NCBI GenBank assembly: GCA_937871435.1
Contig: CALMQM010000123.1
Coordinates: 2,607 to 66,606, forward strand
Direction of reading: 5' to 3'
Source of the DNA: an uncultured Bacteroidota bacterium
GTDB taxonomy: Bacteria; Bacteroidota; Bacteroidia; AKYH767-A; 2013-40CM-41-45
Length of the DNA: 64,000 bases
Shown here piece by piece: positions 8,601-64,000 of this stretch; position 1 is the first letter of the stretch, and each line of letters begins with the position of its first letter. The position numbers were made by a program, and so were the translations under genes. The notes beneath the pieces are model-generated. The model was not told where the DNA came from, searched no databases, and worked only from the letters and a program-made list of their open reading frames with translations.

Positions 8601-11600
8601 GTTTGTTCTTGTCAAAGTGTCAGCGCAGGATCCTTGTGTTGCAATGAGTGTGATGGTATAGATACCTGCTGTTGCATAACTGTGTGCAGGTGATGTGGAA
8701 GAAGATGTCGGAGAACCATCACCGAAATTCCAATTATAAGAAGGGCTTCCTGCTGTTGTATTTATAAACGAAACAGACATGGGAGCACAACCATTCGTGG
8801 AAGATGCGCTGAAGTTTACAACAGGAGCGGGGTTCACAGAAATTGATCTTGTAGAATCATCGGTACAATTGGCTGTGGAGGTTGTTAATGTAACTGAATA
8901 ATTTCCCGCACTGGTATAAACGTGATACGGCTGACTAAGAACAGATGAAGGAGAGCCATCTCCAAAATTCCACGAATATCCGGTGATCGTTCCTCCGTTA
9001 CCGGAAGAATTGTTCGAGAAAAATACCGTGTCACCAAGGCAAATTGTTGATACAGATGAAAAGGAAGAAAGTGGTTTGGGATAAACCGAAATCAAAGCAT
9101 TACGTGTTAATGTATCCGCGCATGATCCCTGTGTAGCGATTAATGTTACAGAGTATGTTCCGGAATTCGCATATATGTGTGATGGTGACGTCTGTGATGA
9201 TGATGGACTACCATCACCAAAATTCCATGAATATACAGGTGAGCCGGAAGTTGTATTGGAGAAGTTGACAGTAAGTGGTCCGCATCCATTGGTGGGAGAA
9301 GGTGAAAAATTCACTGTAGGTGCGGGTGCAATCGTTACAGAAATCGTTGTATCGTCACTGCAATGAATGGTATTTGCAGTAAGAGTGACAGAATATGTCC
9401 CGAACGCGTTATATACATGAAACGGGTTTGTCTGAGACGATACAGGAGAGGCGTCACCAAAATTCCAACTGTATGAGGTGAGTGTACCTCCATTCCCGGC
9501 AGACAAATTTGAAAAGAAAATCGTGTCCCCTAAGCAAATATTATTGTTGGAAGAAAAAGAAGAAAGCGGTTGTGGATGTACTGTGATCATTGCAGACTGA
9601 GTACTGGTGCTGGTGCATCCTGAGCTGCTCGTTGCGGTAAGCGTCACAGTATAAGTGCCTGTTGAATTGTAAGTATGTGATGGTGCGGTTACAGAGGATG
9701 CAGGTGAGCCATCGCCAAAATTCCAGGAATAGGATGTCGCGTTGGTGGTGTTATTAATAAAATTCACCAGCGGAGTGCCGCATCCTGATGTGATGTTTGA
9801 AGAAAAACTAATTGTTGGTTTTGCAGATACTGTGACTGTGTGTGACACACTTGAGGTACAGTTGTTATTATCCGTTGCGGTGAGTGTGACAGTGTATGTT
9901 CCGGCTGTACTGTAAGTATATGAAGGGCTTTGTTGATTTGATGTACCAACACCATCGCCAAAATTCCAACTCCAACCGGTGATTGCGCCTGCGGTCGCAA
10001 ATCCGGAACCTGTAAAGGTTGAGGCGGAACCTTCGCATGCTGAACTGTTCGTAAAGTTTGTGGTAACCACATCTACCATTACATCAATCGCGGTTCTGTA
10101 AAATCCCGGGCAGGTTGCTACATAGTAGGTAGTATTGGAAGAAAGAGAGGGGGTAGTATACGTTGTTCCTGTGGTTAACAATGTTCCACCAACAGCTTGA
10201 TTGTACCAGTAAAAAACTGTTCCGGGAGGAATGGTGCCCTGCGGACTGAGAGTGATTGTTGTTGCTCCACCACCGCAAATCATCACTGATGTTGGAAGAA
10301 TTTTAAAGTTCGAAAGTGTAGCATTTGAAATTCCTGCCCCGCCCTTTGTGGCGCCATTCGGGGGGAACTCAGTCATCCCGCGGGAATTTGTTGTACCATT
10401 TGTGCCTCCATTGGCAGTACGCGTAATCGCTCCGCCGGAAATTGCAATGTAACCACCGCCACCGCCACCACCAGGGCCTTCCGCTTCTATTGTAAACACT
10501 CCAACACTCTGACTTCCTCCGTTTCCGCCATTCGCATTTGCACTGATCCCTGAAATATTTCCAAGAGCATTGAGGATAATCACTCCGCCCGCACCACCGC
10601 CACCTGCGCCATCGGTTCCTGTTGAAACAGTGCTGGAACCATTCACTCCATTTGCAAGCACCTGACCCGCACCTGAAATATCCAATTGCGACATGATATA
10701 TGCTATACCGCCACCTGCTCCACCTGCTCCACCGTAATTATCATTCTGGTCTCCGCCACCGCCACCGCCGCCTAAAAAGATTCTTCCTGTAGAATAATCA
10801 AGAGGACGTGCGCCTCTTCCTCCATTATCTCTTCGGGCATCACCACCCCAAGCACCATTTGTAGTACCTACTGAAAGAGCGTTCTGATCGGAAGAAGAAA
10901 ATGTGTAGCCGCCTTTACCACCTCCGCTTGAAGTTGTAGAAGCAAAGCCTGAATATTCAAGGTTCCATGCATTTGCCCAGGAGCCGGTAGAAATATCCGG
11001 AGTACCGCGGCCAGTCCACGATGCAATATTCCCTGCGTTGCTACCGCCACCACCACCACCGTTGTGAGCACTGGCACCACCTCCTCCATTTGCGGGGGCA
11101 CCTTTGCAATAGCGTCCATTCAACACATCGTAATCTGCCTGATAGCCCGCAACGCTTTCTCCTTTTTCTCCTCCATAAGCAGATTGCAAATCCCGATAAT
11201 TCAGGACTCCCCAACCGGCGTTGTTTTCGAGAAGTGCGCCTCCGCGAAATCCTTTGCCACTCACATCTATTTTACCACCACTGTTAATTGAAACACTTCC
11301 CTGTGTCTCTACTACCAGCACACCGCCGGTTGAACCATTCCATCCGGGACAAGTGAGCGTTCCTGCGCCATTAATGGTAAGTGTTGTATAACGAGGGACT
11401 CGTACTACCTGTGTTCTGCCGGAAGTGGAATAGTTTTTTTGAAGAGCACACGAAAGTGTGATGGTTGTACCATTTGGAACAGTAGCAACTTCGGCCATTT
11501 CATAATTCCCGCAGTTGTTATAATTTAAAATCGCACCGTAAGTCGTGTCGTCTGCAGTGCCGATATTCACTCCTTCAATCTGGATAATAAAAATCAAATC

Positions 11601-11849
11601 TCCAGCTGCGAGTGGGGCGCTGAAATATCCATTTGTATTAAGACTGGAATTCGAAACAGTAATTGACGATGCACCGGCATTTGCATCAGCAGCGAGAGTG
11701 GTGTATTCATTTACACTCACACTACCATTGATTGATTTTGCGCCATTCTTACCTGCCTGAGCAGAACTCTGGGTAGGGGTAAAAAAACAGCTTAAAAAGC
11801 AAAAAATTATCATGCTCACCCAACAGGGGGTAAGGGTTCTCATGCGCAT
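5607..11849 (-). CDS. Giant secreted T9SS cargo protein, 2080 aa: signal peptide, Gly-rich region, at least 14 tandem PKD domains, C-terminal Por secretion tail
   Basis: N-terminal signal MRMRTLTPCWVSMIIFCFLSCFFTPTQSSAQA. Poly-Gly/Ala/Asn low-complexity block at about aa 195-500. The PKD signature WNFGDGS recurs 14 times, alternating between two subtypes. C-terminal ...YIFPNPAHDQVNLMIH...GVYWVSI... matches a TIGR04183-type Por_Secre_tail. Confidence 0.9.
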   Translation of the reverse strand: MRMRTLTPCWVSMIIFCFLSCFFTPTQSSAQAGKNGAKSINGSVSVNEYTTLAADANAGASSITVSNSSLNTNGYFSAPLAAGDLIFIIQIEGVNIGTADDTTYGAILNYNNCGNYEMAEVATVPNGTTITLSCALQKNYSTSGRTQVVRVPRYTTLTINGAGTLTCPGWNGSTGGVLVVETQGSVSINSGGKIDVSGKGFRGGALLENNAGWGVLNYRDLQSAYGGEKGESVAGYQADYDVLNGRYCKGAPANGGGGASAHNGGGGGGSNAGNIASWTGRGTPDISTGSWANAWNLEYSGFASTTSSGGGKGGYTFSSSDQNALSVGTTNGAWGGDARRDNGGRGARPLDYSTGRIFLGGGGGGGDQNDNYGGAGGAGGGIAYIMSQLDISGAGQVLANGVNGSSTVSTGTDGAGGGGAGGVIILNALGNISGISANANGGNGGSQSVGVFTIEAEGPGGGGGGGYIAISGGAITRTANGGTNGTTNSRGMTEFPPNGATKGGAGISNATLSNFKILPTSVMICGGGATTITLSPQGTIPPGTVFYWYNQAVGGTLLTTGTTYTTPSLSSNTTYYVATCPGFYRTAIDVMVDVVTTNFTNSSACEGSASTFTGSGFATAGAITGWSWNFGDGVGTSNQQSPSYTYSTAGTYTVTLTATDNNNCTSSVSHTVTVSAKPTISFSSNITSGCGTPLVNFINNTTNATSYSWNFGDGSPASSVTAPSHTYNSTGTYTVTLTATSSSGCTSTSTQSAMITVHPQPLSSFSSNNNICLGDTIFFSNLSAGNGGTLTSYSWNFGDASPVSSQTNPFHVYNAFGTYSVTLTANTIHCSDDTTISVTIAPAPTVNFSPSPTNGCGPLTVNFSNTTSGSPVYSWNFGDGSPSSSQTSPSHIYANSGTYSVTLIATQGSCADTLTRNALISVYPKPLSSFSSVSTICLGDTVFFSNNSSGNGGTITGYSWNFGDGSPSSVLSQPYHVYTSAGNYSVTLTTSTANCTDDSTRSISVNPAPVVNFSASSTNGCAPMSVSFINTTAGSPSYNWNFGDGSPTSSSTSPAHSYATAGIYTITLIATQGSCADTLTRTNYITANPTPTASFSSNNNVCLGDTIFFTNSSSGNGGVLSSYSWNFGDGSLTSSQTNPNHLFSAAGSYSVVLTASTSACSDDTTIQISVAPAPVVSFSASTTSGCNPLTVNFTNTTTGSPVYTWNFGDGSPASSLNAPSHTFNTAGVYTVTLIATQGSCSDTLVTPSMITVSAKPTASYSAPSSVCLGDTVHFVNLSTGNGSAISGYAWNFGDGSPSSSSTQPAHAFTSAGNYSVTLTTIAGVCSDDTTITISVNPAPQVSFSSSSTLACGPQTISFTNTTTGSPVYSWDFGDGTASSSATNPSHAYTNTGTFSVTLIATQGSCADTLTQTNLITIVPQPTAAFTTSNVCLGDSVHFVNTSTGNGGTIVSYSWSFGDGSPSSTSSNAVHYYSTAGSYTVSMTAFTATCSDFTTQTVTVSPAPQVQFTSSVSSGCSPVDVSFTNTTSGSPVYTWNFGDGSSTSSLTTPTHTYTSAGVYSVSLIATQGSCADTLSIPNMITVSASPIADFTASTPCFGDTLYFTNQSLPNGAVINGYSWNFGDGSPLSSSQDIAHYYSSAGAYNVTLITSGAGACSDTMTQTVNVLPRPVVNFSTAITEGCDSLTVSFTNTTTGASSYHWSFGDGDTSASISPSHQFTNAGMYTVGLTAVAAGGCSATRAYVNMIVVRNSPIVQFAASDNSICPGDCIAFTDQTSGTLTTWQWTFTGANPSSASVANPGSVCYPVMGTFDVGLTVSDGHCSGSRSTSGLIHVVNCSQLPQANFISSDTNLCGGSCISFVSMALNAVSWQWLFPGATPASSTDESPSGVCYSQPGNYSITQIVTNTAGTDTLQLTNFIQVNSNPQTPVFSQSGDTLTCSPALSYQWYLNGIPISGATNQQFVATLSGNYSVEITDGKGCTSISATRFVALVGIDETPEQALFYIFPNPAHDQVNLMIHSGKLQTVRIALTDALGQVLVKEEIKLTTQDQLYTLDCNNFASGVYWVSISNSGAIANRKIILQK
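6180..10000 (-). repeat. Tandem array of roughly 270-nt PKD-domain coding repeats, two alternating subtypes
   Basis: Protein-level periodicity (…SWNFGDGSP…TVTLTA…) and recurrent DNA motifs such as ccatcaccaaaattcca. The small ORFs on both strands in this interval are repeat artefacts. Confidence 0.7.
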
Positions 11850-52377: not shown

Positions 52378-52878
52378 ATGAAAACATTGTATTTGGTCAG
52401 ACACGCGAAATCAAGCTGGTCGTTGAATGAGTTGCCGGATATAGATCGACCGCTGAACGATCGCGGATATGGCGATGCGCATTTAATGAGCAAAACGCTT
52501 CTTCATAAAATTCAGGTTCCAGATCTGATGATTAGCAGTTCCGCGATTCGGGCCACATCTACCGCTTTGATTTTTGCGCGAACTTTTGGGTATCCCGTAG
52601 AAAAATTGCAGTTAGAATCTCAATTGTATGAAACCAAAGTAGCGGATTACCTGGAAGTGCTTTCGAGGGTGCCCGATGGAGTTCAAAATCTGATGGTTTT
52701 TGCACACAATTTTACCATCAGCGAAATCGTTCCTTATTTTTTAGTAGAGACTATTGAGGAGATGTCCACTTGCGCGGTGATGGGTATGGATTTGGAAATA
52801 GATCATTGGGGCGATATCAAAACAGCCCGGGGAAACAGAGCACTTTATTTATTTCCCAAAATGTTGAAGGAGATGTAA
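52378..52878 (+). CDS. Histidine phosphatase family protein (SixA-like)
   Basis: N-terminal LYLVRHAKS (RHG-type motif). 166 aa. Confidence 0.75.
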   Translation: MKTLYLVRHAKSSWSLNELPDIDRPLNDRGYGDAHLMSKTLLHKIQVPDLMISSSAIRATSTALIFARTFGYPVEKLQLESQLYETKVADYLEVLSRVPDGVQNLMVFAHNFTISEIVPYFLVETIEEMSTCAVMGMDLEIDHWGDIKTARGNRALYLFPKMLKEM

Positions 52879-53299: not shown

Positions 53300-55462
53300 A
53301 TGGGACGCAAACAGGTAGAGTTGGTCGACCGCGATTTAAGTTGGTTGTCATTTAATGCAAGAGTATTACAGGAAGCAGAAGACATATCTGTTCCTCTTTT
53401 AGAAAGACTGAGGTTTCTTGGAATATTCTCCAGTAACAGCGATGAATTTTTCAGAGTGCGCGTAGCCACAATTCGCCGGATGTCAAAATGGGGAAAGAAG
53501 GGAAAAGATCTGCTCGGCACCGATCCCGAAGAGTTGCTTGAAAAGATTCAAAAAACCGTTCTTCTACACCAGAAGAAATTCGAAAAAATATATGCCGAAA
53601 TTCTTCTTGAACTGGAGAAGGAAAATATCAGCATCATCAATGAAAAGCAACTGACGAAAGAGCAAGGAGTATTTGTCAGAAATTATTTTCATGAACATGT
53701 CTATCAGTTTTTGGTGCCAATCATGATAGACTCGTCTCCGAAGTTTCCATACCTGAAAGACAAGTCCATTTATCTGGCAATTGTTCTTAGTCGTCTGGAT
53801 AAATCGAAAAAGGATAAATATTCGCTGATAGAAATCCCGTCAGACGTTGTTTCGAGATTTCTTGTATTGCCATCTGTGAATGAAAAAAGACACATTATCT
53901 TACTGGATGATGTTATCCGCTTTTGTCTGAATGATATATTTTCCATTTTCGATTATGATGCGATTGAGGCCTACACTATTAAACTAACGCGAGATGCGGA
54001 GCTGGACATAGATAGCGACGTTTCGAAAAGTTATGTGGAAAAGATTTCGAAGAGTGTCAAGCAAAGAAAGAAAGGAGACCCCGTCAGGCTCGCTTACGAC
54101 GAAAACATTCCTGTTGATCTGCTGGCGTTCATTCTCAGAAAAATAAAATTGTTCAACGAAGAACATCTGATCCCCGGCGGCAGATATCACAATTTCAAAG
54201 ATTTTATTTCCTTCCCAAATGTGGGCCGAAAGGAACTTCGTTATGCAAAAATCAAATCCATTGACCATCCGGATTTGAAGGGTCAGCGCAGTTTGTTCAA
54301 GGCGATTAAAAACACTGATGTACTGCTTGCATATCCGTATCATTCATTTCATCACATCATTGATTTACTGAGGGAAGCGTCCATTGATCCCAAGGTTACA
54401 TCTATCCGACTTACGCTTTATCGTGCGGCAAACAACAGCAGTTTTGTGAACACGCTGATCAATGCGATAAAAAACGGGAAGCAGGTTACGGCAGTTGTAG
54501 AATTGCAGGCGCGATTCGATGAGGAGACAAATATTTTTTATGCAAATAAGCTACAGGAAGAAGGAGCGGAGGTTATTTTTGGCGTTCCCGGACTAAAGGT
54601 CCACAGCAAACTGATTTTAATTTCCAGAAAAGAAGGCGGCAAGACGGTGAATTATGCTCACGTTGGAACAGGAAATTTCAACGAACAAACAGCAAAAGTT
54701 TACAGTGATCACGCATTGCTTACGAGCAACAAACAGATCACCGCGGAGATCGAACGATTATTTTCTTTTTATAAAGACAATTACAAAACCGGACACTATA
54801 AACACCTGATAGTTTCTCCTTTCAATACAAGAAAAAAATTCTGCTCGATGATTGAGGAAGAAATGGAGAATGCCAAAGCGGGCAGGGAAGCAAAGATTAC
54901 ACTGAAGATGAACAGTCTCGTTGACCGGGAAATGATTTCTTTGTTGTACGAAGCAAGTTGTGCGGGAGTTAAGATCAAAATGATCGTAAGAGGAATATGC
55001 TCTCTCATTCCCGGGGTAAAAGGGATGAGCGAAAACATCGAAGTGATCAGCATCGTGGATAAATTTTTAGAACACAGCCGTATTTTTATTTTTCATAATG
55101 GCGGCAAGGAAAAGTTTTACATCGCTTCAGGAGACTGGATGTATAGAAATCTTGATCATCGCTCCGAGGTAGCTGTACCAATTGTAGACCACCGTTTACA
55201 AGAGGAGTTACGGCAGTACATTGCGATTCAGTTTCAGGATAATTGCAAAGCGCGGGTTGTCAACAAGGCCCAGGATAATCACTATGTTGTAAGAGAGAAC
55301 GGAAAAAAAGTTCGGGCACAAGTTGAGCTTTTTACGTGGCTGCAATCAAAAGCAAAAAAGAAGGAAGGCGAACCAGCACAAACCGCAGTCATTGTTAAGA
55401 CCCAATTGCTTGCTTCTTCAGGCAACGAGTTTGTGGTTGATCCGGGTTTGTTAAAAGAGTAA
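53300..55462 (+). CDS. ppk: Polyphosphate kinase 1
   Basis: 720 aa. Canonical PPK1 N-terminus (…LSWLSFNARVLQEAED…) and C-terminal PLD-like domains. Confidence 0.9.
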   Translation: MGRKQVELVDRDLSWLSFNARVLQEAEDISVPLLERLRFLGIFSSNSDEFFRVRVATIRRMSKWGKKGKDLLGTDPEELLEKIQKTVLLHQKKFEKIYAEILLELEKENISIINEKQLTKEQGVFVRNYFHEHVYQFLVPIMIDSSPKFPYLKDKSIYLAIVLSRLDKSKKDKYSLIEIPSDVVSRFLVLPSVNEKRHIILLDDVIRFCLNDIFSIFDYDAIEAYTIKLTRDAELDIDSDVSKSYVEKISKSVKQRKKGDPVRLAYDENIPVDLLAFILRKIKLFNEEHLIPGGRYHNFKDFISFPNVGRKELRYAKIKSIDHPDLKGQRSLFKAIKNTDVLLAYPYHSFHHIIDLLREASIDPKVTSIRLTLYRAANNSSFVNTLINAIKNGKQVTAVVELQARFDEETNIFYANKLQEEGAEVIFGVPGLKVHSKLILISRKEGGKTVNYAHVGTGNFNEQTAKVYSDHALLTSNKQITAEIERLFSFYKDNYKTGHYKHLIVSPFNTRKKFCSMIEEEMENAKAGREAKITLKMNSLVDREMISLLYEASCAGVKIKMIVRGICSLIPGVKGMSENIEVISIVDKFLEHSRIFIFHNGGKEKFYIASGDWMYRNLDHRSEVAVPIVDHRLQEELRQYIAIQFQDNCKARVVNKAQDNHYVVRENGKKVRAQVELFTWLQSKAKKKEGEPAQTAVIVKTQLLASSGNEFVVDPGLLKE

Positions 55463-56083: not shown

Positions 56084-57100
56084 ATGAACCTGCCTGTTGT
56101 CGTTGACGTGGCCATCTCCATGGTTTTTGTGTATCTCTTATTCAGCATTCTTGTTTCTGCAATCAGTGAGTTGTTGCAACACTGGACAAGAGAGCGTGGG
56201 TATTTTTTGTACGATTCTTTGTACAAAATATTTGCTGACCGCCACAATTTGAATTATGCACTTTTATTGTATGGACACCCTATCATTGATTCAAAAAAGC
56301 AAGGAGGGAAAAAATATCCGTCATACATTCAATCGAAAGCTTTCGCAGAAGCATTAATTGATCTGATTGCACAGCCTGCTCTTGCCGGAGCGATACAACA
56401 ACAAAACGGACAGCTTTTTATAGCTCAACTTGCAAATGCTGATATCAGGAAACCAACAAATGTCCACGCCGATTTTCTGGAGGCGGTGAAAGGAATGAAC
56501 AATTCCAATTTACGCATTCTTCTGGCGAGTCTTGCAGCACAATCTGAGTCTTATGAAAAGTTAAAGGAGAATATCATTCTGTGGTATGATGATTATATGG
56601 ATACGGTTTCAGGATGGTATAAGCGGAAGATTATTCGCAGAACACAATACATCGGTTTGTTGGTGGCATTTATTTTTCATGTTGACACAATTTTTCTCGT
56701 GGATAAATTCTGGTCGAATGAAATTCTGCGTTCTTCTGTAGTTCTCGCTGCGGAAAAAGAAGTTTCGAATCCAGAGTTAATGAGAGAGTATTCTGTACTC
56801 AGAGATTCAGCAATCGATAAGGAGAATAACGCTTTCAAAAACATAAATGAAATAAAAAAAATATCTGAACAACTGGCGCTGCCTATCGGAATGAAACAAT
56901 ATGAAATACGATTAGCAAACAAGAGTACATGTAATAAGCTGCTAGAACTATTTCTAATAATGATAGGTTGTACACTCACAGGATTCGCACTTGCCTATGG
57001 AGCAGATTATTGGTTCAATATACTTGGTAAATTAATCAATGTCCGATCGGCCGTAAAACCACCATCCGGAGATCCGTCAAAAAAGGAGGATAAAAAATGA
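56084..57100 (+). CDS. Hypothetical 3-TM membrane protein
   Basis: N-terminal, central and C-terminal TM helices. Stop overlaps the next start (ATGA), suggesting translational coupling. Confidence 0.6.
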   Translation: MNLPVVVDVAISMVFVYLLFSILVSAISELLQHWTRERGYFLYDSLYKIFADRHNLNYALLLYGHPIIDSKKQGGKKYPSYIQSKAFAEALIDLIAQPALAGAIQQQNGQLFIAQLANADIRKPTNVHADFLEAVKGMNNSNLRILLASLAAQSESYEKLKENIILWYDDYMDTVSGWYKRKIIRRTQYIGLLVAFIFHVDTIFLVDKFWSNEILRSSVVLAAEKEVSNPELMREYSVLRDSAIDKENNAFKNINEIKKISEQLALPIGMKQYEIRLANKSTCNKLLELFLIMIGCTLTGFALAYGADYWFNILGKLINVRSAVKPPSGDPSKKEDKK

Positions 57101-58227
57101 ACTTATACAATTGCCACACTCATATTTTTTCAACACAATATGTTCCGGACAATGTTGTAGGACAACAGGATCATCTTGGAGGTTTGACTAAATTTTTAAG
57201 CATACGCAAAATTTCACGATGGAATCCAGCGGTGTTGAATATCGCAGGAAAACTATTTGGAGGCTGGCCGGGAGCAAACAGAGTTATCACATTTGCAAAA
57301 ATTGGACTTGCGGCCACGCAGGAGAAAATATTTGATCAACTGGTTGACTATTACACTCCCTGGGGAGATGTGCGTTTTGTTGTTCTCACGATGGACATGG
57401 AAATGATGCAGGGCGGACCGGTGCCGAGTAATTTGCTCACACAACTTGATGAAATCATCCGATTGCGAAGTAAAGGGAATAACGCGGACAGGATTTTACC
57501 TTTTATCTGTATTGACCCGAGAAATCCCCGTTATCTGAATGGCGATTCCATTGTTGATTTTGTGAAACCTTATTTCGAGAAATATGGATTCATCGGAATT
57601 AAGTTGTATCCGGCACTCGGATATTTTCCACAGGACGCGAAAATGTTTCCATTGTATCGGTGGTGTGCCAACAATTGTGTACCGATTATCACACACTGTA
57701 TTACCGGCGTGATTCATTATCGTGGAGATGTTTCCGCGCTACCTCCTGTAAATAATCCCGGCAATGTTCCTTATGTCGCGGATAACAACAGCAGTGATCC
57801 GAAAATTTATCAGAGAAACTTTACTCAGCCCAGAAACTACTCAGCCATTTTGAGCGAGATCCCCAATCTGAAAATATGCCTCGCGCACTATGGTGATGAC
57901 AAAGAGTTGATAGCAGGAAAAGGCTGGCCACAAGAAATCAACGCTTTGATTCAAAAGTATCCGAATGTTTATACGGATATGTCTTACATTATCGAAAACA
58001 CGGGGACTTTTCCGGCAATTCAAAAATCGCTTTCAACACCGGTGTTGGAAGATCGTGTATTATTTGGAACAGACTATTATGTGGTGAGTAAAGCAAAACT
58101 GGAAAATGAACTTGCAAACGATTTTCGCAGCTACATGATCCAGCAGAATTTACATACGCTGTTTTTGAAATCTGCCACAACAAATGCACAGAAATTTTTG
58201 AGCTCAAAATTTTATACGGCACCATAA
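57097..58227 (+). CDS. Amidohydrolase-2-like (TIM-barrel) metal-dependent hydrolase, cytoplasmic
   Basis: N-terminal CHTHIF (HxH), later ITHCI, LAHYG and FGTDYY Asp. No signal peptide. Confidence 0.65.
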   Translation: MNLYNCHTHIFSTQYVPDNVVGQQDHLGGLTKFLSIRKISRWNPAVLNIAGKLFGGWPGANRVITFAKIGLAATQEKIFDQLVDYYTPWGDVRFVVLTMDMEMMQGGPVPSNLLTQLDEIIRLRSKGNNADRILPFICIDPRNPRYLNGDSIVDFVKPYFEKYGFIGIKLYPALGYFPQDAKMFPLYRWCANNCVPIITHCITGVIHYRGDVSALPPVNNPGNVPYVADNNSSDPKIYQRNFTQPRNYSAILSEIPNLKICLAHYGDDKELIAGKGWPQEINALIQKYPNVYTDMSYIIENTGTFPAIQKSLSTPVLEDRVLFGTDYYVVSKAKLENELANDFRSYMIQQNLHTLFLKSATTNAQKFLSSKFYTAP

Positions 58228-58249
58228 ATCGATTATTAAAACCTGAGAC

Positions 58250-59779
58250 ATGTTTGCAGACCTTCATGTACATCCCGGATTAAAACCGTTTCATAGTGGC
58301 CACCCACTTCCGGACGCGAATAAAAATATATATGCTGATCTCGACAATCCGGGAGTAAAAGATTTTTTGCGATGGCTTGCAAATGTTGCTCATATGGGGG
58401 TGATTTTTTATTCTCAATCAAATCTTGAACGGATGCGATTTGGAAAAGTGCGTGTGGCGTGCGTTTCGCTCTATCCACTCGAAAAAGGTTTTGCAAAAGT
58501 GGATTTGCAAGAAGCTCCATTTTTACAAAGAGAGATTTTGCGTTTGTTTGGGTATGATGATATTCATTTGGTAGAAGCGGTTGCAGGAGTGCAAAAAGAC
58601 AAGGTAGCATTTATCAGAAATACAGAAGACGATTATTTCCCTTTTCTGGAGCAGGAGTATCAATACATGCTTGCTCAGACAAAAACACCGGAAGCGAACA
58701 CCAAAGCGAAATTTGTAAGAGATTTTACAGAATTAAAAACGGTGCTGGCCGAACCGGATACAATCGCATTGATCAATACGATTGAAGGAGCCCATGTGTT
58801 TGGAGCCTACTCTCAAGATGATTCTGTGATTACACCTGAACGGTTAAAAACGTATTCAGAGCGAATAGCACATGTGAAAAATGTCTGGGAATTCCCGCCA
58901 TTCTTTATTTCTCTTCAACATCATTTTTGGAATCACCTCGGAGGACATGCCAGAAGTCTTTCCGGATTACTCAGTGATGTCGTGAATCAAAATGATCACA
59001 TGAATGAAGGGTTGAATGAATTGGGAAAACATGTGATTCGGGAATTGCTGAGTAATCAGAATGGAAAAAGAATTCTGGTTGATATCAAACATATGTCGGC
59101 CCGCTCGAGGAAAGACTTCTACGGAATGTTGAAGACAGAATTTTCCGGAGAGAAAATTCCGATTATCTGCAGTCATACCGGAATTATGGATCAACGGGAA
59201 ACGTTGAACAGAATCATTGCGGAACCTCAGGATACAGAAGAAGCTAACGCGAATAATTATCTGCACAATTGGTCCATTAATCTGTGCAAGGAGGATATAT
59301 TGAATATCTATAGGAGCGGAGGCTTGATTGGAATTCAACTGGATGAGAAGAGACTGGGAGGAGGATTGGCGCAAACGAAACTTACTCTTGCAAAAAAGAA
59401 GCAGCCGCAACCGTCGAATGACCCGGAAAGACCATGGTTGGTCCGGGAAGAATACATGAAACTTCTGTGGGGCAATATTTTTACCCTCGTACGCTATATC
59501 AGGCAACCTGATGCCTGGGATATCATCACAATTGGTTCTGATATGGACGGACTGATTAATCCTATGGACATTTATCCTGACAGCACATACATGGATGAAC
59601 TTGCAGAGGACATGCGTGATTTTCTGCTCAGTAAAACGCCTATTCCTGAATTGAATTTAAGACCGGAATTTATCAAGAATTATATGTATGGCTACACACC
59701 GGAGGAATTGGTAAATAAAATTATGTTTTCAAATATGGAAGATTTTCTGGAAAAGAATTTTCAGGACCATTTAGCCTAA
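58250..59779 (+). CDS. Amidohydrolase-superfamily metal-dependent hydrolase, cytoplasmic
   Basis: DLHVHPG (HxH), IEGAHVFG, QHHFWNH, DIKHM, CSHTG and IGSDMDG. The pattern matches metal ligands of a binuclear TIM-barrel hydrolase. Confidence 0.6.
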   Translation: MFADLHVHPGLKPFHSGHPLPDANKNIYADLDNPGVKDFLRWLANVAHMGVIFYSQSNLERMRFGKVRVACVSLYPLEKGFAKVDLQEAPFLQREILRLFGYDDIHLVEAVAGVQKDKVAFIRNTEDDYFPFLEQEYQYMLAQTKTPEANTKAKFVRDFTELKTVLAEPDTIALINTIEGAHVFGAYSQDDSVITPERLKTYSERIAHVKNVWEFPPFFISLQHHFWNHLGGHARSLSGLLSDVVNQNDHMNEGLNELGKHVIRELLSNQNGKRILVDIKHMSARSRKDFYGMLKTEFSGEKIPIICSHTGIMDQRETLNRIIAEPQDTEEANANNYLHNWSINLCKEDILNIYRSGGLIGIQLDEKRLGGGLAQTKLTLAKKKQPQPSNDPERPWLVREEYMKLLWGNIFTLVRYIRQPDAWDIITIGSDMDGLINPMDIYPDSTYMDELAEDMRDFLLSKTPIPELNLRPEFIKNYMYGYTPEELVNKIMFSNMEDFLEKNFQDHLA

Positions 59780-59795: not shown

Positions 59796-62700
59796 ATGAA
59801 AAATATTTTCAAGCTGTCGAATAAGAGAAGATCACACGCGGAGATATGGGTTGTATTGTTTTTAATCCTTGTATTGGTAGGGTATTATTATATGCTTTAT
59901 ATCCCCAGTCAGCAAAACAGGTTGGTGGAACAAAAATTCAGATCTCTAAGCAGGATTGATGAAAATATTCACAACAAAATAGAGTCCTATCAGAAATACA
60001 TTCGTTCCTATGTATTTGACTCAGACCTCTGGAATTCTCAGAAAATCCGGGAGAAAATAGAAGGGGGGAATTATTATGACGAAGACAAGAAAATACTAAT
60101 AAAAAGACGAACAGATAATTCGAAAATAATTCCACAGGATTCTGCGAAAACGATCCTGGATATTCAAAACAATCAGTTGGAGCAGATCGTTTATACCTGC
60201 TCTGAAAATGGCGCCCTGGAGTTTTCTCAGCGAAATAATTTCAAAGAATTTATCCGCCCTCTACTGACCAATGATCTTTTTGATAACTATTTGATATTGT
60301 CGGATAGCGGAGTGTTGTTTGAGTCTTTTCCTTCCGGAATGTCATTTAAAAAACTGGACTCGGTATTCGATTCAAGATCCACCATTCATTACTGCAAGCT
60401 AAGAGACATTGAAATCGGCGGAGTTAGTTACAAAATGTTTCTACAGCCATTGGGAAATTTATCCGGAAGTGAAATTGTCATCGTTGGATTATTGACTACG
60501 GGTAATTTTAATGCCAATGTCAGACAACTTCCGGAGGCGTTGATTACACCAATTCTTTACATTCTGCTTTCTATTCTTTTGCTCTTCCCACTATTGAAAC
60601 TGATGCTGATGGGTAAAGCGGAGCGCATGCGCTTTGTTGATTTGTTGTTTTCTTATATCTCGCTAATGATGTTGTGTGGAACGACCATTCTGATTCTTTG
60701 CAGATATTCCCCGCAGGTTGATAATGAAACGAACAAACATCTGGAAACGATAAGCAATCAAATCGAGTCGAACTTCAACACAGAAGTACACTCCGCCTTC
60801 AGACACTTATCAAATCTTGATAGTATAGTTAACGACACGAAAAATGGTTTGACCACTCAGAAAAAATCTTTTGCTGAGCAACAGTGGGGATTGGTTTCTA
60901 TCAATGACAAGGACAAAATTAATTTTGACAAGAAAAAAAATACCGATAAAAATAATTCCACAGAGAAAACTGATAAGACAGAAAATCAAAATCAATTTTT
61001 ACAAAATGTTTTCAATTCTATCAAAGACAATTACATCCGCATTTCTCAGGTATATTGGATTGATCCGAATGCAAAGATCAGAATTAATTGGACTGAAGCG
61101 GCTACCAACCCTCCATTTGGAATGGTGGATGATAGAAAATACTTTTCTGCAATTAAAGAGCAGCAGTTCTACTATTTAGACAATGATATCACACAACCCT
61201 ACTATCTGCAGCCTGTAATTTCCTGGTCTGACAAGCAATATAAGCTTGTGATATCAAAGCCATCCATTCATAAAGACTTTGCTGCGACGGGTATGTCATG
61301 CTATTTCAACTCTCTGATACGGACAACGCTGCCACCCGGAATTAGTTTTGCCCTGCTTGATGAAGGTGGAGAAGTACTTGCTCATTCGGATTCACTGAAA
61401 AACCTGAGGGAGAATATGTATAATGAAAGTGACGCCGCATCAGTCATCAGTGGAATTCAATTGACGGAAGTCCCACGTCATTTCAATACGAAATATTCAG
61501 GCGGTAATTATTCTGCTTATGCAAAAAAAATTAAAGGATTGCCATATGTACTTGTAGTATTTGAAGACAGAAGTTATGAAAGCAGCCGGTATGTATCCGC
61601 GTTGTTTTATGCGTTGATTTTATTTGGCAGTTTGCTTGTTGTGATGCTGGGAGAAATCCTGTTGTTGTCGTTCAATGGCTATAACAGATCGGTACTAAAG
61701 AAAAACGATTTCAATTTTAACTGGATTTTTCCACGGACGGGACAGCGCCAGAAATATTGGATGATTACTGCTACCAATGGCCTGTTGATTATAATCTTGC
61801 CGCTTTATTTCACCCATGTTCTCAATGGCAACGTAGAGTTAATCCTGAAATCATTAATCACAACGTTTTTGCTTTCGACCTTGTTTTACACTTTAGTGAG
61901 CTGTGAAAAGAACAAACTAAAATTTGAATTTAACAGAAAGAAAGGACTTTTGTTCTGGTCGTTTATGCTCATCCTGTTTTTTATGTTGTTTCATTCAGCG
62001 ATTCAACCCTGCACTTCACGGGCGTTGTTGAGGACTCTTGGGCCGGCAGGAATAACACTTGGAATTTGCATTCTGAATTTTTCTCTGCTGAAAAACGGAA
62101 TCACATACAGAGGAAACAGTTTGCTTCCAGATGCAGGAAGTGCAAGAAGGAGCTATTCGGCGGTCGTATTTTCCAGAATTCTCCTGACATGCGGAATGCC
62201 GGTTATGTATTTTTATTGCAGTGGATACAATCTGATTTTGAGAAATGAAGCGAAAGAAAAACTATTTGTTTTTGCGCAACAGGTAAATCGATACAACAAG
62301 AGTAATCTCGATCCGGTATTATATCCCGCAAACTGTTCGATGCCAATCCACCAGTTTCTCGGTATTTATTTTGATCAATTCTGGATTTCTGATACATGTC
62401 GCTACGAATCAAAACCAGGAACGGATGAGTTTCGTGTGGACATGGAGCAATTGCAACTTCACACCATGCGAAAGGCGATGGCCATTAGTAAAACCCGCAA
62501 ACATCCATGGTTTTATTCTTATGGACAACGGGCAGACACAGGGTCCTATTCATTTGTAGAAACAAAAAATGGAATCATGCTAAACATGAGGCCTACATTC
62601 AATTCGATTTGTGATACACCGGGCAGCCAATCTATATTCTATACAGGGAAAGATCTATTTGCGTCGATGAGCTTGTTTGGGACGAATTCAAACAAATTAA

Positions 62701-64000
62701 ATGAGGTGATCCTGATTGTTGTATTAATTGTGTTACTGCTTATTTTATTTTTTCTGATTGGATATACGACTGAGAAAATATTTGGAAAATATTCTGTTCC
62801 GGAAATGCCCTCTCGTTTTTTACGCAATCAAATTCTGGAAACAGAAATGCGAAAGCTGTTGTTTATTCAGGGTCCGCCTGGATCAGGGAAAACGCAATTT
62901 GTGAGAGAGTATTTGCGCTACCGTACAAAAGAAAAAATAACTGATCAGCATGGTACGGTACAGGAAGTTACTGTAACAAAGAAGTACCAATTTGCAAAGT
63001 CTGAAAAAGACATCAATGAAACAACAAATGCAGTGATCATTGATTTACTGGAAATTCCGGACTCATCCGAATCGGATAATATTCCACTCTGGAGATACAA
63101 AATCACAAAGATTCTTGAAAACAAGAATTTACAATGCATTCTCATCAACCATTTTGAATACAACATTCGGGACCTTACAACCAACAGAATAAAATTGAAT
63201 TTCCTTGAAAAATTACTGATTGATCATGGCCAACGCAAACTGGTGATCGTATCAACGATAGACCTCGGAGAATTTATTTATTCGATGGAGAACAATCTGG
63301 TTCTGGATGAAAGCCAACGTGCTGAAATATTTGAGGATGTTCACCGCTGGAGAGTTTTACTGGGAAACTTTGCCAATATTTATTTACCTCTCGATACTCA
63401 TTTTGAACACGCTGCAATAAATCTTGATAGCCCAATAGAAGACGTATTAAAAAACGAATGCGGCTCAATAAAATTTCTTCAACCGTTCAGGGAGGAGATG
63501 GAGAAAACGATCCAACTACAGAGAGTAAGGAAAGAAGAGCCCATTTCCGCGATAGAATTAATTTTTCAAATTCAGGGTTTTGCTACACATTTCTACCAGT
63601 ACCTGTGGGCCTCACTGACACGAGAAGAACAAATTATTCTGATAGATATGGCCGAAGACGGAATATTGAACACCAGCAATGCCGGTTGTCTGAAATTATT
63701 GATTGATAAAGGGATTATTAGTATGGTTGATGGTAAAATGCAATTGTTCAATCTGAGCTTTCGTAACTTTTTGCTTACTGTAATTACGACGGAGGATAAA
63801 CAAAAACTGGTAACCGGGATAGACGATAACAGTTACTGGAATAATTATAAGTATCCGATCGGAATAGTTGCCGCCTCCCTTGTGTGGCTGTTGTTATACA
63901 GTGATCCGGAGAAGTTCGGGAATATTTTACCCACACTCACCGCTCTGGGAACCGGCGTGCCGATTATTTTCCGTTTGTTGACAATGTTTAAAACGGGCGA
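59796..64000 (+). CDS. Giant polytopic membrane protein (>1401 aa, 3' partial): periplasmic Cache-like segments, at least 9 TMs, cytoplasmic P-loop NTPase, then a helical C-terminal module (possibly a winged helix)
   Basis: A single uninterrupted frame from ATG 59796 to the window end. It is not in the ORF track because it has no stop, and no frame-0 plus-strand ORFs are listed. Walker A IQGPPGSGKTQF at 62865 (in frame, about aa 1024). Walker B-like AVIIDLLE and KLVIVSTID. Multiple hydrophobic segments. The periplasmic stretch VYWIDPNAKIRINW…YYLQPVISWSDKQYKLVISKP looks Cache-like. Confidence 0.75.
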   Translation, partial: MKNIFKLSNKRRSHAEIWVVLFLILVLVGYYYMLYIPSQQNRLVEQKFRSLSRIDENIHNKIESYQKYIRSYVFDSDLWNSQKIREKIEGGNYYDEDKKILIKRRTDNSKIIPQDSAKTILDIQNNQLEQIVYTCSENGALEFSQRNNFKEFIRPLLTNDLFDNYLILSDSGVLFESFPSGMSFKKLDSVFDSRSTIHYCKLRDIEIGGVSYKMFLQPLGNLSGSEIVIVGLLTTGNFNANVRQLPEALITPILYILLSILLLFPLLKLMLMGKAERMRFVDLLFSYISLMMLCGTTILILCRYSPQVDNETNKHLETISNQIESNFNTEVHSAFRHLSNLDSIVNDTKNGLTTQKKSFAEQQWGLVSINDKDKINFDKKKNTDKNNSTEKTDKTENQNQFLQNVFNSIKDNYIRISQVYWIDPNAKIRINWTEAATNPPFGMVDDRKYFSAIKEQQFYYLDNDITQPYYLQPVISWSDKQYKLVISKPSIHKDFAATGMSCYFNSLIRTTLPPGISFALLDEGGEVLAHSDSLKNLRENMYNESDAASVISGIQLTEVPRHFNTKYSGGNYSAYAKKIKGLPYVLVVFEDRSYESSRYVSALFYALILFGSLLVVMLGEILLLSFNGYNRSVLKKNDFNFNWIFPRTGQRQKYWMITATNGLLIIILPLYFTHVLNGNVELILKSLITTFLLSTLFYTLVSCEKNKLKFEFNRKKGLLFWSFMLILFFMLFHSAIQPCTSRALLRTLGPAGITLGICILNFSLLKNGITYRGNSLLPDAGSARRSYSAVVFSRILLTCGMPVMYFYCSGYNLILRNEAKEKLFVFAQQVNRYNKSNLDPVLYPANCSMPIHQFLGIYFDQFWISDTCRYESKPGTDEFRVDMEQLQLHTMRKAMAISKTRKHPWFYSYGQRADTGSYSFVETKNGIMLNMRPTFNSICDTPGSQSIFYTGKDLFASMSLFGTNSNKLNEVILIVVLIVLLLILFFLIGYTTEKIFGKYSVPEMPSRFLRNQILETEMRKLLFIQGPPGSGKTQFVREYLRYRTKEKITDQHGTVQEVTVTKKYQFAKSEKDINETTNAVIIDLLEIPDSSESDNIPLWRYKITKILENKNLQCILINHFEYNIRDLTTNRIKLNFLEKLLIDHGQRKLVIVSTIDLGEFIYSMENNLVLDESQRAEIFEDVHRWRVLLGNFANIYLPLDTHFEHAAINLDSPIEDVLKNECGSIKFLQPFREEMEKTIQLQRVRKEEPISAIELIFQIQGFATHFYQYLWASLTREEQIILIDMAEDGILNTSNAGCLKLLIDKGIISMVDGKMQLFNLSFRNFLLTVITTEDKQKLVTGIDDNSYWNNYKYPIGIVAASLVWLLLYSDPEKFGNILPTLTALGTGVPIIFRLLTMFKTG

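What the first reader, a model, noticed from the sequence alone, without database searches (positions are those of the whole stretch)
59796..64000. Over 1400-aa protein: P-loop NTPase embedded in a polytopic membrane scaffold with two periplasmic sensor-like domains
The predicted topology is TM1, periplasmic domain 1 (about aa 37-250), two TMs, periplasmic domain 2 (about aa 306-560, Cache-like motifs), a block of about 6 TMs, a cytoplasmic linker, another TM (about aa 975-995), then a Walker-A GPPGSGKT/Walker-B NTPase followed by a helical module that resembles the winged-helix domain of STAND/AAA+ proteins, and further C-terminal TMs running off the window. KAP-family and STAND NTPases are normally soluble or have only a few inserted TMs. 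A Cache-7TM-NTPase fusion of this size is not a standard family that I recognise.
Basis: partly seen in the sequence, partly recalled or inferred. Interest (0 to 1): 0.75.

Follow-up and report, generated by a model that had tools for sequence, protein, structure and literature searches.

The report
Cache membrane receptor with decaying ATPase module
This gene encodes a real, nearly complete 1,400-residue membrane receptor from a large but unnamed Bacteroidota family that joins outside-facing Cache sensor domains to an inside-facing ATPase-like switch whose ATP-binding motifs are lost in most relatives, so its signalling output is still unknown.

Summary
The ORF is real: 1,401 codons with no stop, and about 5-10 codons lie beyond the window end. 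There are 12 TM helices, two outside sensor domains, a six-helix TM block, TM10, a cytoplasmic P-loop + helical + winged-helix-like module, and a terminal TM hairpin.

Three corrections:
- The 810-970 "linker" is predicted to lie outside the cell, not in the cytoplasm.
- The Walker B acid is Asn1118, so the site is not canonical.
- The protein ends just past the window, so no further large region is missing.

The protein looked like an orphan, with 4 hits among 5.8 billion sequences in the word-indexed search. An exhaustive HMMER search then found 3,878 representatives (1,769 at E ≤ 1e-30). All named members are Bacteroidota, and sources call them only "cache domain-containing protein" or hypothetical. 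No Pfam or NCBIfam model covers the cytoplasmic part.

Of 147 relatives, only 20 keep GxxxxGK[ST], and a Persicobacter relative lacks the P-loop domain entirely. The winged-helix-like segment and TM hairpin are the best-conserved parts.

Best reading: a Cache receptor driving a membrane-clamped AAA+/STAND-like switch that binds ATP but probably hydrolyses it poorly. The output partner is unknown. I class it as a new variant of known kinds, of moderate interest.

The parts
59796..64000 (+). Receptor gene: 1,401 codons, open to the window end, with an estimated 5-10 codons missing
   Evidence: The N-terminus aligns with homologues from Met1.
59844..59900 (+). TM1 (aa 17-35), N-terminus inside
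   Evidence: Hydropathy. There are 5 K/R in the 16-aa N-terminal tail.
59901..60539 (+). Outside domain 1 (aa 36-248): long helices followed by a PAS/Cache-like beta-sheet module
   Evidence: AF2 secondary structure. hhalign of aa ~139-235 against the membrane-proximal module of domain 2 gives probability 85%, E = 6e-6.
60540..60698 (+). TM2-TM3 hairpin (aa 249-267 and 283-301) with a conserved FPxxKL motif and a K/R-rich inside loop
60699..61610 (+). Outside domain 2 (aa 302-605): double-Cache (dCache_1-type) sensor
   Evidence: Homologues hit PF02743. Foldseek matches solved dCache domains. Invariant residues are H530, N536, E539, N540 and E544.
61611..62222 (+). Six-helix TM block (aa 606-809; TM4-TM9)
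   Evidence: Hydropathy plus AF2 helices and the positive-inside pattern. TM5 and TM9 are the weaker helices.
62223..62705 (+). Variable region (aa 810-970), predicted to be extracytoplasmic; fold unknown
   Evidence: TM parity and K/R counts. Its length ranges from 131 to 283 aa among members. hhalign finds no similarity to domains 1 or 2.
62706..62762 (+). TM10 (aa 971-989), the most hydrophobic segment
   Evidence: Kyte-Doolittle 3.74
62838..63290 (+). Cytoplasmic AAA+/STAND-like P-loop core (aa 1015-1165)
62871..62894 (+). Walker A GPPGSGKT (aa 1026-1033; Lys1032)
   Evidence: It is canonical here but in only 20 of 147 relatives.
63135..63164 (+). Walker B-position strand CILINHFEYN (aa 1114-1123), with Asn1118 in place of Asp and a conserved HFEY
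63237..63263 (+). Sensor-1-like strand KLVIVSTID (aa 1148-1156)
   Evidence: Ser conserved in 132 of 147
63291..63581 (+). Helical arm / lid (aa 1166-1262), the least conserved part
63582..63800 (+). Winged-helix-like module (aa 1263-1335), the best-conserved segment of the family
   Evidence: 48% mean pairwise identity. AF2 shows helices plus a beta-hairpin. It is retained in the P-loop-less variant.
63852..63980 (+). C-terminal TM hairpin (TM11 about aa 1353-1371, TM12 aa 1377-1395), preceded by a conserved GxW...KxP motif

Best explanation
The gene encodes a member of a large, unnamed, apparently Bacteroidota-specific family of roughly 1,350-aa polytopic inner-membrane receptors.

Shown:
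- Two extracytoplasmic Cache-type ligand-binding domains, each bracketed by TM helices, are followed by a six-helix bundle, a variable third outside region and TM10.
- A cytoplasmic module follows, built like the nucleotide-binding switch of AAA+/STAND proteins: a P-loop alpha/beta core, a helical arm and a winged-helix-like domain.
- That module is clamped to the membrane at both ends, by TM10 and by a C-terminal TM hairpin.

Inferred:
- Ligand binding outside is transmitted through the helices to this clamped module, which changes conformation or oligomeric state.
- The signal leaves through the highly conserved winged-helix-like domain and TM hairpin to a partner that is still unknown.
- In the window copy and its nearest relatives the Walker A is intact but the Walker B acid is missing. 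The module therefore probably binds ATP as a cofactor or slow switch rather than acting as a motor.
- In most of the family the site is degenerate, so the module would act without nucleotide.
For: - The ORF and its collinearity with homologues.
- A 12-TM topology with a consistent positive-inside pattern in seven members.
- Cache identity of domain 2: Pfam hits in homologues and Foldseek hits to McpH, Mlp24/37, CtaA, PctA and Tlp3.
- Domain 1 is related to the membrane-proximal Cache module: hhalign probability 85%.
- Motif survey of 147 relatives: 20 canonical Walker A, 60 with Lys kept but Ser/Thr lost, 51 with Lys lost, 15 with the segment deleted.
- The three closest relatives (33-35% identity in the C-terminal module) share GK[ST] together with a non-acidic Walker B residue. 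That suggests this state is maintained by selection.
- The winged-helix-like segment is the most conserved part (48% against 18-33% elsewhere). It persists with the TM hairpin in a 1,001-aa Persicobacter relative that has no P-loop domain, and as a separate 151-aa ORF in locus L004.
- There are no conserved neighbours, no phage match, and only P-loop-limited matches to defence-system models.
Against: - No output activity or partner has been identified, so the signalling step is pure inference.
- Both AF2 models have low confidence (pLDDT 59.8 and 47.0, built from alignments of 3-4 sequences). All fold matches for the cytoplasmic module are weak: no Foldseek hit at E <= 1e-3, and profile searches of solved structures match only the P-loop motif.
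- The winged-helix assignment rests on the secondary-structure pattern and on my own knowledge of STAND/Orc1 sequence patterns. No Pfam HTH or WH model matches it.
- The conserved Glu1121 could substitute as a catalytic acid, in which case the window protein might be an active ATPase.
- The outside location of aa 810-970 depends on two weakly hydrophobic helices (TM5 and TM9).
Confidence: 0.5

Rival explanations
1. It is a membrane-tethered one-component transcription regulator. The Cache domains sense a ligand, and the conserved winged-helix domain, held at the inner face of the membrane, binds DNA directly. This would resemble ToxR/CadC-type regulators, or the DNA-binding winged helix of Orc1/Cdc6 that follows an AAA+ lid.
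For: - The WH-like segment is the most conserved part and survives loss of the P-loop.
- No enzymatic output domain is present.
Against: - No Pfam HTH or WH model matches the segment, even at E <= 10.
- The segment is acidic and hydrophobic in its conserved core (LYDLAEDGLVN) rather than basic.
- It sits about 15 residues from a TM hairpin, which limits access to DNA.
- No conserved target genes lie nearby.
Confidence: 0.15
2. It is an ATP-driven membrane machine, such as a transporter, flippase or envelope-assembly factor. The 12 TM helices would form the working part, the P-loop domain would supply energy, and the Cache domains would gate it. This is the stronger form of the first reader's idea.
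For: - There are twelve TM helices, and the window copy has an intact Walker A.
- A near-invariant acidic residue (E1121) lies close to the Walker B strand.
- 14 of the 20 members with a canonical Walker A also keep an acidic Walker B residue, so a subgroup may be catalytically active.
Against: - About 45% of relatives have lost the Walker A lysine or the whole segment, and a further 41% have lost the Ser/Thr.
- A relative works with no P-loop domain at all.
- The TM block is among the least conserved regions (22% identity).
- No transporter family matches the protein.
Confidence: 0.12
3. It is a conflict or defence protein of the STAND type. The NOD-like module would oligomerise on a trigger, and the TM helices would act as a membrane-disrupting effector.
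For: - TM-bearing STAND ATPases are mentioned in defence systems (bioRxiv 10.1101/2025.11.14.688446).
- There are weak PADLOC hits to MkoA and mad8.
- Foldseek hits include NLR and Dark proteins.
Against: - The PADLOC hits cover only about 35 residues around the P-loop.
- Neighbouring genes are housekeeping genes and differ in every locus.
- There is no phage match, and the only plasmid-collection hit is on a 1.58-Mb replicon.
- The sensors face outward, whereas phage sensing by STAND proteins is cytoplasmic (established knowledge).
- The family is large and looks vertically spread within one phylum.
Confidence: 0.05
4. The long ORF is an artefact: a fusion of two or more genes by sequencing or assembly error, or a decaying pseudogene.
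For: One relative (L004) is split into 1,091-aa and 151-aa ORFs.
Against: - More than 150 relatives of 1,300-1,500 aa match from end to end with the same domain order.
- An independent assembly agrees over 876 residues.
- There is no stop in 1,401 codons.
Confidence: 0.01

Closest known systems
dCache_1-containing transmembrane receptors (chemoreceptors and sensor kinases such as McpH, Mlp24/37, PctA, Tlp3, DctB)
   Same: Both have an extracytoplasmic double-Cache ligand-binding domain flanked by TM helices. This is supported by Pfam hits in homologues and by Foldseek hits.
   Different: - There is no kinase, MCP, GGDEF or other recognised output domain.
- A second Cache-like loop sits upstream of the dCache domain.
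- The protein has 12 TM helices rather than 2.
- The cytoplasmic part is an AAA+/STAND-like module plus a TM hairpin.
STAND NTPases (NB-ARC / NACHT / AAA_16-MalT type; archaeal ATPase_2, e.g. PABY2304)
   Same: - The order P-loop core, helical arm, winged-helix-like domain is the same.
- The sequence pattern LSxEEkxhLxxLA...L..L...GLI....y.hH.hhR.Fh is typical of STAND winged-helix domains (my own knowledge).
   Different: - No STAND model reaches its threshold.
- The Walker B acid and the hhhTSR-type sensor arginine are missing.
- The Walker A is degenerate in most members.
- The module is tethered between TM helices and is fed by an extracellular sensor, rather than by C-terminal repeats.
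Initiator / loader clade AAA+ proteins (DnaC/DnaI helicase loaders, DnaA, Orc1/Cdc6, RFC)
   Different: - The matches cover only 110-160 residues of a moderate-confidence model.
- There is no sequence-level significance.
- Nothing links the protein to replication, and it is membrane-embedded.
KAP family P-loop NTPases
   Same: Both are P-loop proteins with TM helices.
   Different: In KAP proteins the TM helices are inserted inside the P-loop domain. Here no TM lies between Walker A (aa 1026) and the Walker B strand (aa 1114), and PF07693 gives no hit.
7TMR-DISM receptors
   Same: Both have an extracellular sensor domain followed by a multi-helix TM block and a cytoplasmic module.
   Different: The protein has no 7TMR-DISM or DISMED hit, its block has six helices, and both its sensor and its output differ.

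Membership tests
dCache_1 (PF02743) sensor domain | Significant match to the family HMM | tested here: inconclusive
   The window protein itself gives no hit at E <= 1. Collinear homologues hit the same region: Dyadobacter 52.3 bits and P0106 46.7 bits (cut-off 45), and several others at E = 1e-10 to 1e-12.
dCache_1 (PF02743) sensor domain | Extracytoplasmic location between two TM helices | tested here: met
   aa 302-605 lie between TM3 and TM4, and the positive-inside pattern places this loop outside.
dCache_1 (PF02743) sensor domain | Double PAS-like fold with a long N-terminal helix | tested here: inconclusive
   The AF2 model is poor overall (pLDDT 47), but aa 510-590 score 70-82. Foldseek's top 30 hits are nearly all solved dCache domains, with a best E of 6e-6.
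STAND NTPase | Match to a STAND HMM (NB-ARC, NACHT, AAA_16, ATPase_2) | tested here: not met
   NB-ARC scores 15.6 bits (cut-off 23.5), ATPase_2 15.7 (33.2) and AAA_16 15.4 (32.6). NACHT gives no hit.
STAND NTPase | Walker A GxxxxGK[ST] | tested here: met
   GPPGSGKT lies at aa 1026-1033. Only 20 of 147 family members keep this motif.
STAND NTPase | Walker B hhhhD[DE] | tested here: not met
   The strand reads CILIN(1118)H. Across the family this position is N in 50, D in 27, K in 20 and E in 10 members.
STAND NTPase | NBD + helical domain + winged-helix arrangement | tested here: inconclusive
Classical AAA+ ATPase | ASCE alpha/beta core with five strands, and structural similarity to AAA+ proteins | tested here: met
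Classical AAA+ ATPase | Arginine finger and sensor 2 | not tested
   No conserved Arg could be assigned from the alignments. A reliable oligomer model would be needed.
KAP NTPase (PF07693) | TM helices inserted within the P-loop domain, and an HMM match | tested here: not met
   There is no PF07693 hit, and no hydrophobic segment lies between aa 1026 and 1165.
7TMR-DISM | 7TMR-DISM_7TM and DISMED HMM matches, and seven TM helices | tested here: not met
   There is no hit, and the block has six helices.
Known anti-phage defence systems (PADLOC) | Full-length match to a defence protein model, and defence-island context | tested here: not met
   Only 33-38-residue P-loop matches were found, to MkoA and mad8. 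The neighbours are housekeeping genes.

The most novel reading that the evidence does not exclude
The family is a previously unrecognised class of bacterial transmembrane signal transducers. An extracellular Cache sensor would drive a membrane-clamped NOD-like (NBD + helical + winged-helix) switch, making it in effect a "transmembrane NLR-like receptor". Its output would be oligomerisation or partner/DNA capture by an invariant winged-helix domain. Nucleotide dependence would be in the course of being lost across the family, giving a natural series from ATP-dependent to ATP-independent switches.
Probability: 0.25. Interest if true: 0.8.

Novelty: new variant of a known kind. Interest (0 to 1): 0.55.

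Why it matters
Cache domains are the most common extracellular sensors in prokaryotes (established knowledge). Almost all of those studied feed kinases, chemoreceptor arrays or cyclic-nucleotide enzymes. This family has thousands of sequence clusters and appears restricted to Bacteroidota, yet it couples Cache sensors to a cytoplasmic module that no curated model recognises and that has no enzymatic output.

If the module is a NOD-like switch, three things would follow:
- The output repertoire of bacterial receptors would gain a new entry.
- Researchers would have a membrane-anchored system for studying how STAND/AAA+ switches work.
- The family would provide a natural series of ATP-site decay for studying how pseudo-ATPases evolve.

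A cultured carrier, Dyadobacter sp. 3J3, makes genetic tests feasible. There is also a practical lesson: the word-indexed search made this protein look like an orphan, and only the exhaustive profile search revealed the family.

Tried and rejected
- **Word-indexed homologue searches.** The single-sequence search and the four-sequence profile each found only 4 proteins. The apparent rarity was an artefact of the method.
- **Genome scan.** A two-member alignment worked.
- **Restricted inputs.** The AF2 models were therefore built from 3-4 sequences and have low confidence.
- **Unavailable library.** The afdb50 fold library was not available.
- **Searches of solved structures.** Profile searches with the C-terminal module (6 and 15 sequences) and with the N-terminal region gave only P-loop motif hits or noise.
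- **Winged-helix-like segment.** Pfam scans of this segment from 7 members at E <= 10 found no consistent family.
- **Conserved gene neighbourhood.** I rejected this after checking seven other loci that share no partners. The amidohydrolase / M19-like genes upstream are specific to this genome.
- **Possible paralogue.** The 1,504-aa unannotated gene near P0011 is unrelated.
- **Third outside region.** hhalign found no similarity to either Cache-like domain.
- **Literature.** Searches for Cache-STAND or membrane STAND receptors and for degenerate Walker A receptors found no description of this architecture.
- **Family assignments.** KAP, 7TMR-DISM and defence-system memberships were tested and rejected.


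Full report
**Observation**

Frame 1 from position 59796 is open for 1,401 codons up to the window end. The first 876 residues are identical to a partial protein from an independent Bacteroidia MAG assembly (P0001, GCA_035343935.1), which carries the same upstream genes. Alignment with full-length relatives shows that the window copy stops 3-8 residues before their C-termini. The gene is therefore essentially complete, and nothing large is missing beyond the window.

**Anatomy and topology**

A hydropathy scan and the helices in the AlphaFold models give 12 TM segments:

| Segment | Residues |
|---|---|
| TM1 | 17-35 |
| TM2 | 249-267 |
| TM3 | 283-301 |
| TM4-TM9 (six-helix block) | 606-809 |
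| TM10 | 971-989 |
| TM11 | about 1353-1371 |
| TM12 | 1377-1395 |

I counted Lys and Arg in each loop across seven family members. Short loops predicted to be inside carry 3-7 K/R, and short loops predicted to be outside carry 0-2. This fixes the N-terminus inside the cell, with aa 36-248 and 302-605 outside and the 990-1345 module inside.

This step is an inference, and it depends on two weakly hydrophobic helices (TM5 and TM9). The alternative with four helices in the block would put a loop with six K/R outside the cell.

**The sensor domains**

The window protein gives no Pfam Cache hit. Its collinear relatives do hit dCache_1 in the region equivalent to aa 302-605. The Dyadobacter member scores 52.3 bits and P0106 scores 46.7 bits, both above the 45-bit cut-off, and several others reach E = 1e-10 to 1e-12.

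I built profiles from about 150 members and compared them with hhalign. The alpha/beta part of outside domain 1 (aa ~139-235) aligns with the membrane-proximal module of domain 2 at 85% probability and E = 6e-6. The third outside region resembles neither domain. Its length varies from 131 to 283 residues among members.

**The cytoplasmic module**

Pfam gives only sub-threshold P-loop hits at aa 1011-1130: NB-ARC, ATPase_2, AAA_16, AAA_22 and others. NCBIfam gives nothing. PADLOC matches only about 35 residues around the P-loop.

The C-terminal AF2 model (pLDDT 59.8) shows a five-strand alpha/beta core, then a helical arm, then helices with a beta-hairpin (winged-helix-like), then two terminal helices. 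The fold searches gave these results:

- Foldseek finds no hit at E <= 1e-3. Its top list mixes initiator-type AAA+ with STAND/NLR proteins.
- Profile searches of solved structures match only the P-loop motif.

The fold class is therefore AAA+/STAND-like, but membership in any named family is not established.

**Family size**

The word-indexed searches found just four proteins among 5.8 billion. A pattern scan of GTDB genomes added five loci: Dyadobacter sp. 3J3, Flavisolibacter, Flavihumibacter and two MAGs.

The exhaustive HMMER search then changed the picture. It found 3,878 representatives of 50%-identity clusters at E <= 1e-3, 3,130 at E <= 1e-10 and 1,769 at E <= 1e-30. The top 150 are nearly all 1,300-1,500 aa and match from end to end.

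Where a source gives a name, it is "cache domain-containing protein" or "hypothetical protein", and the organism is always a Bacteroidota member. The literature searches found no description of this architecture.

**Decay of the ATP site**

I aligned the C-terminal modules of 147 relatives and classified the Walker A position:

| Walker A state | Members |
|---|---|
| Canonical GxxxxGK[ST] | 20 (14 of these also keep an acidic Walker B residue) |
| Lysine kept, Ser/Thr lost (typically GxPGSGK-L) | 60 |
| Lysine lost | 51 |
| Segment missing | 15 |
| Near-canonical (K[ST] kept) | 1 |

The window protein has the canonical GPPGSGKT but Asn1118 at the Walker B position. Its three closest relatives are only 33-35% identical in this module, yet they share that state: GK[ST] with Thr or Asn at the Walker B position. 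This suggests the state is maintained by selection. It fits ATP binding with weak or no hydrolysis.

One caveat applies. A nearly invariant acidic residue three positions later (E1121, within the motif HFEY) might act as the catalytic acid.

A 1,001-aa Persicobacter protein matches the family at both ends. Its N-terminal region matches at E = 1e-15, and its winged-helix-like module plus TM hairpin matches at E = 2e-23. It lacks the third outside region, TM10 and the whole P-loop domain. Its five-helix block keeps the winged-helix module in the cytoplasm.

In locus L004, the winged-helix-like module plus TM hairpin is encoded as a separate 151-aa ORF. The winged-helix-like segment is also the best-conserved part of the family, at 48% mean pairwise identity against 18-33% elsewhere.

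The conserved core is therefore the sensors, the TM bundle, the winged-helix-like domain and the TM hairpin. The P-loop module is dispensable in at least one lineage.

**Genomic context**

In this genome the gene sits 16 nt after an M19-like dipeptidase gene. An Amidohydro_2 gene and an unannotated 338-aa ORF lie directly upstream of that, and no terminator-like site separates the genes. None of seven other loci carrying a family member shares these or any other neighbours, and the surrounding genes are housekeeping genes. There is no phage match. This argues against a defence island or a conserved multi-gene system.

**Interpretation**

Shown: this is a polytopic Cache receptor with a membrane-clamped AAA+/STAND-like module whose nucleotide site is decaying across a large Bacteroidota family.

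Inferred: ligand binding outside changes the conformation or oligomeric state of the clamped module, and the signal leaves through the winged-helix-like domain and TM hairpin to an unknown partner. The window copy probably binds ATP but is not a motor. My confidence in the combined statement is about 0.5.

The rivals, with my confidence in each:

- A membrane-tethered transcription factor: 0.15.
- An ATP-driven membrane machine: 0.12.
- A STAND-type defence protein: 0.05.
- An assembly or sequencing artefact: 0.01.

**Verdict**

The interpretation needs three corrections: the ATP site is non-canonical and mostly degenerate in the family, the linker lies outside the cell, and the protein belongs to a large family rather than being an oddity.

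The components are known kinds of domain. The combination is not modelled by any curated family and, as far as I could find, is undescribed. I rate it a new variant of a known kind, with interest 0.55.

Noticed in passing
window 56084-59779 (+): Three tightly packed genes lie directly upstream of the receptor gene. They are a 338-aa ORF with no Pfam hit, an Amidohydro_2 protein (4-nt overlap with the ORF before it) and a 509-aa M19-like dipeptidase (16-nt gap to the receptor's ATG). No terminator-like site separates them. The arrangement is specific to this genome and is not found next to other family members. It may hint at a peptide- or amide-related ligand here.
   Followed up: partly
L012 3436-6441 (Persicobacter sp. 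JZB09, CP012852.1): A 1,001-aa relative keeps the sensor/TM region and the winged-helix-like module plus TM hairpin. It has no P-loop domain, no TM10 and no third outside region. How common this short architecture is among the ~3,900 hits is unknown.
   Followed up: partly
L004 181-3456 and 3543-3998: A family member is split into a 1,091-aa ORF and a 151-aa ORF, the second encoding the winged-helix-like module plus TM hairpin. I did not resolve whether this is a true split or a frameshift.
   Followed up: no
L006 310-4971 (Bacteroidia MAG): This 1,554-aa member carries an insertion of about 120 aa in the third outside region, made of repeated short units (for example KKDTIIINGV and NDTIVIRNIIP). 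This fits an exposed, fast-evolving surface.
   Followed up: no
window 63144-63155 (aa 1117-1120 region; motif HFEY at aa 1119-1122): The motif H-F-E-Y just after the Walker B strand is nearly invariant across the family (F in 128 of 147, E or D in 128 of 147). It is conserved even in members that have lost the Walker A lysine, and its role is unexplained.
   Followed up: partly
window 5607-11849 (-): A 2,080-aa protein has about 14 PKD repeats and a T9SS C-terminal sorting domain (Por_Secre_tail). It is a typical secreted Bacteroidota surface protein.
   Followed up: partly
window 53300-55462 (+) and 52378-52878 (+): Polyphosphate kinase 1 (868 bits to the NCBIfam model) is preceded by a histidine-phosphatase-family gene. 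Both are ordinary housekeeping context.
   Followed up: no
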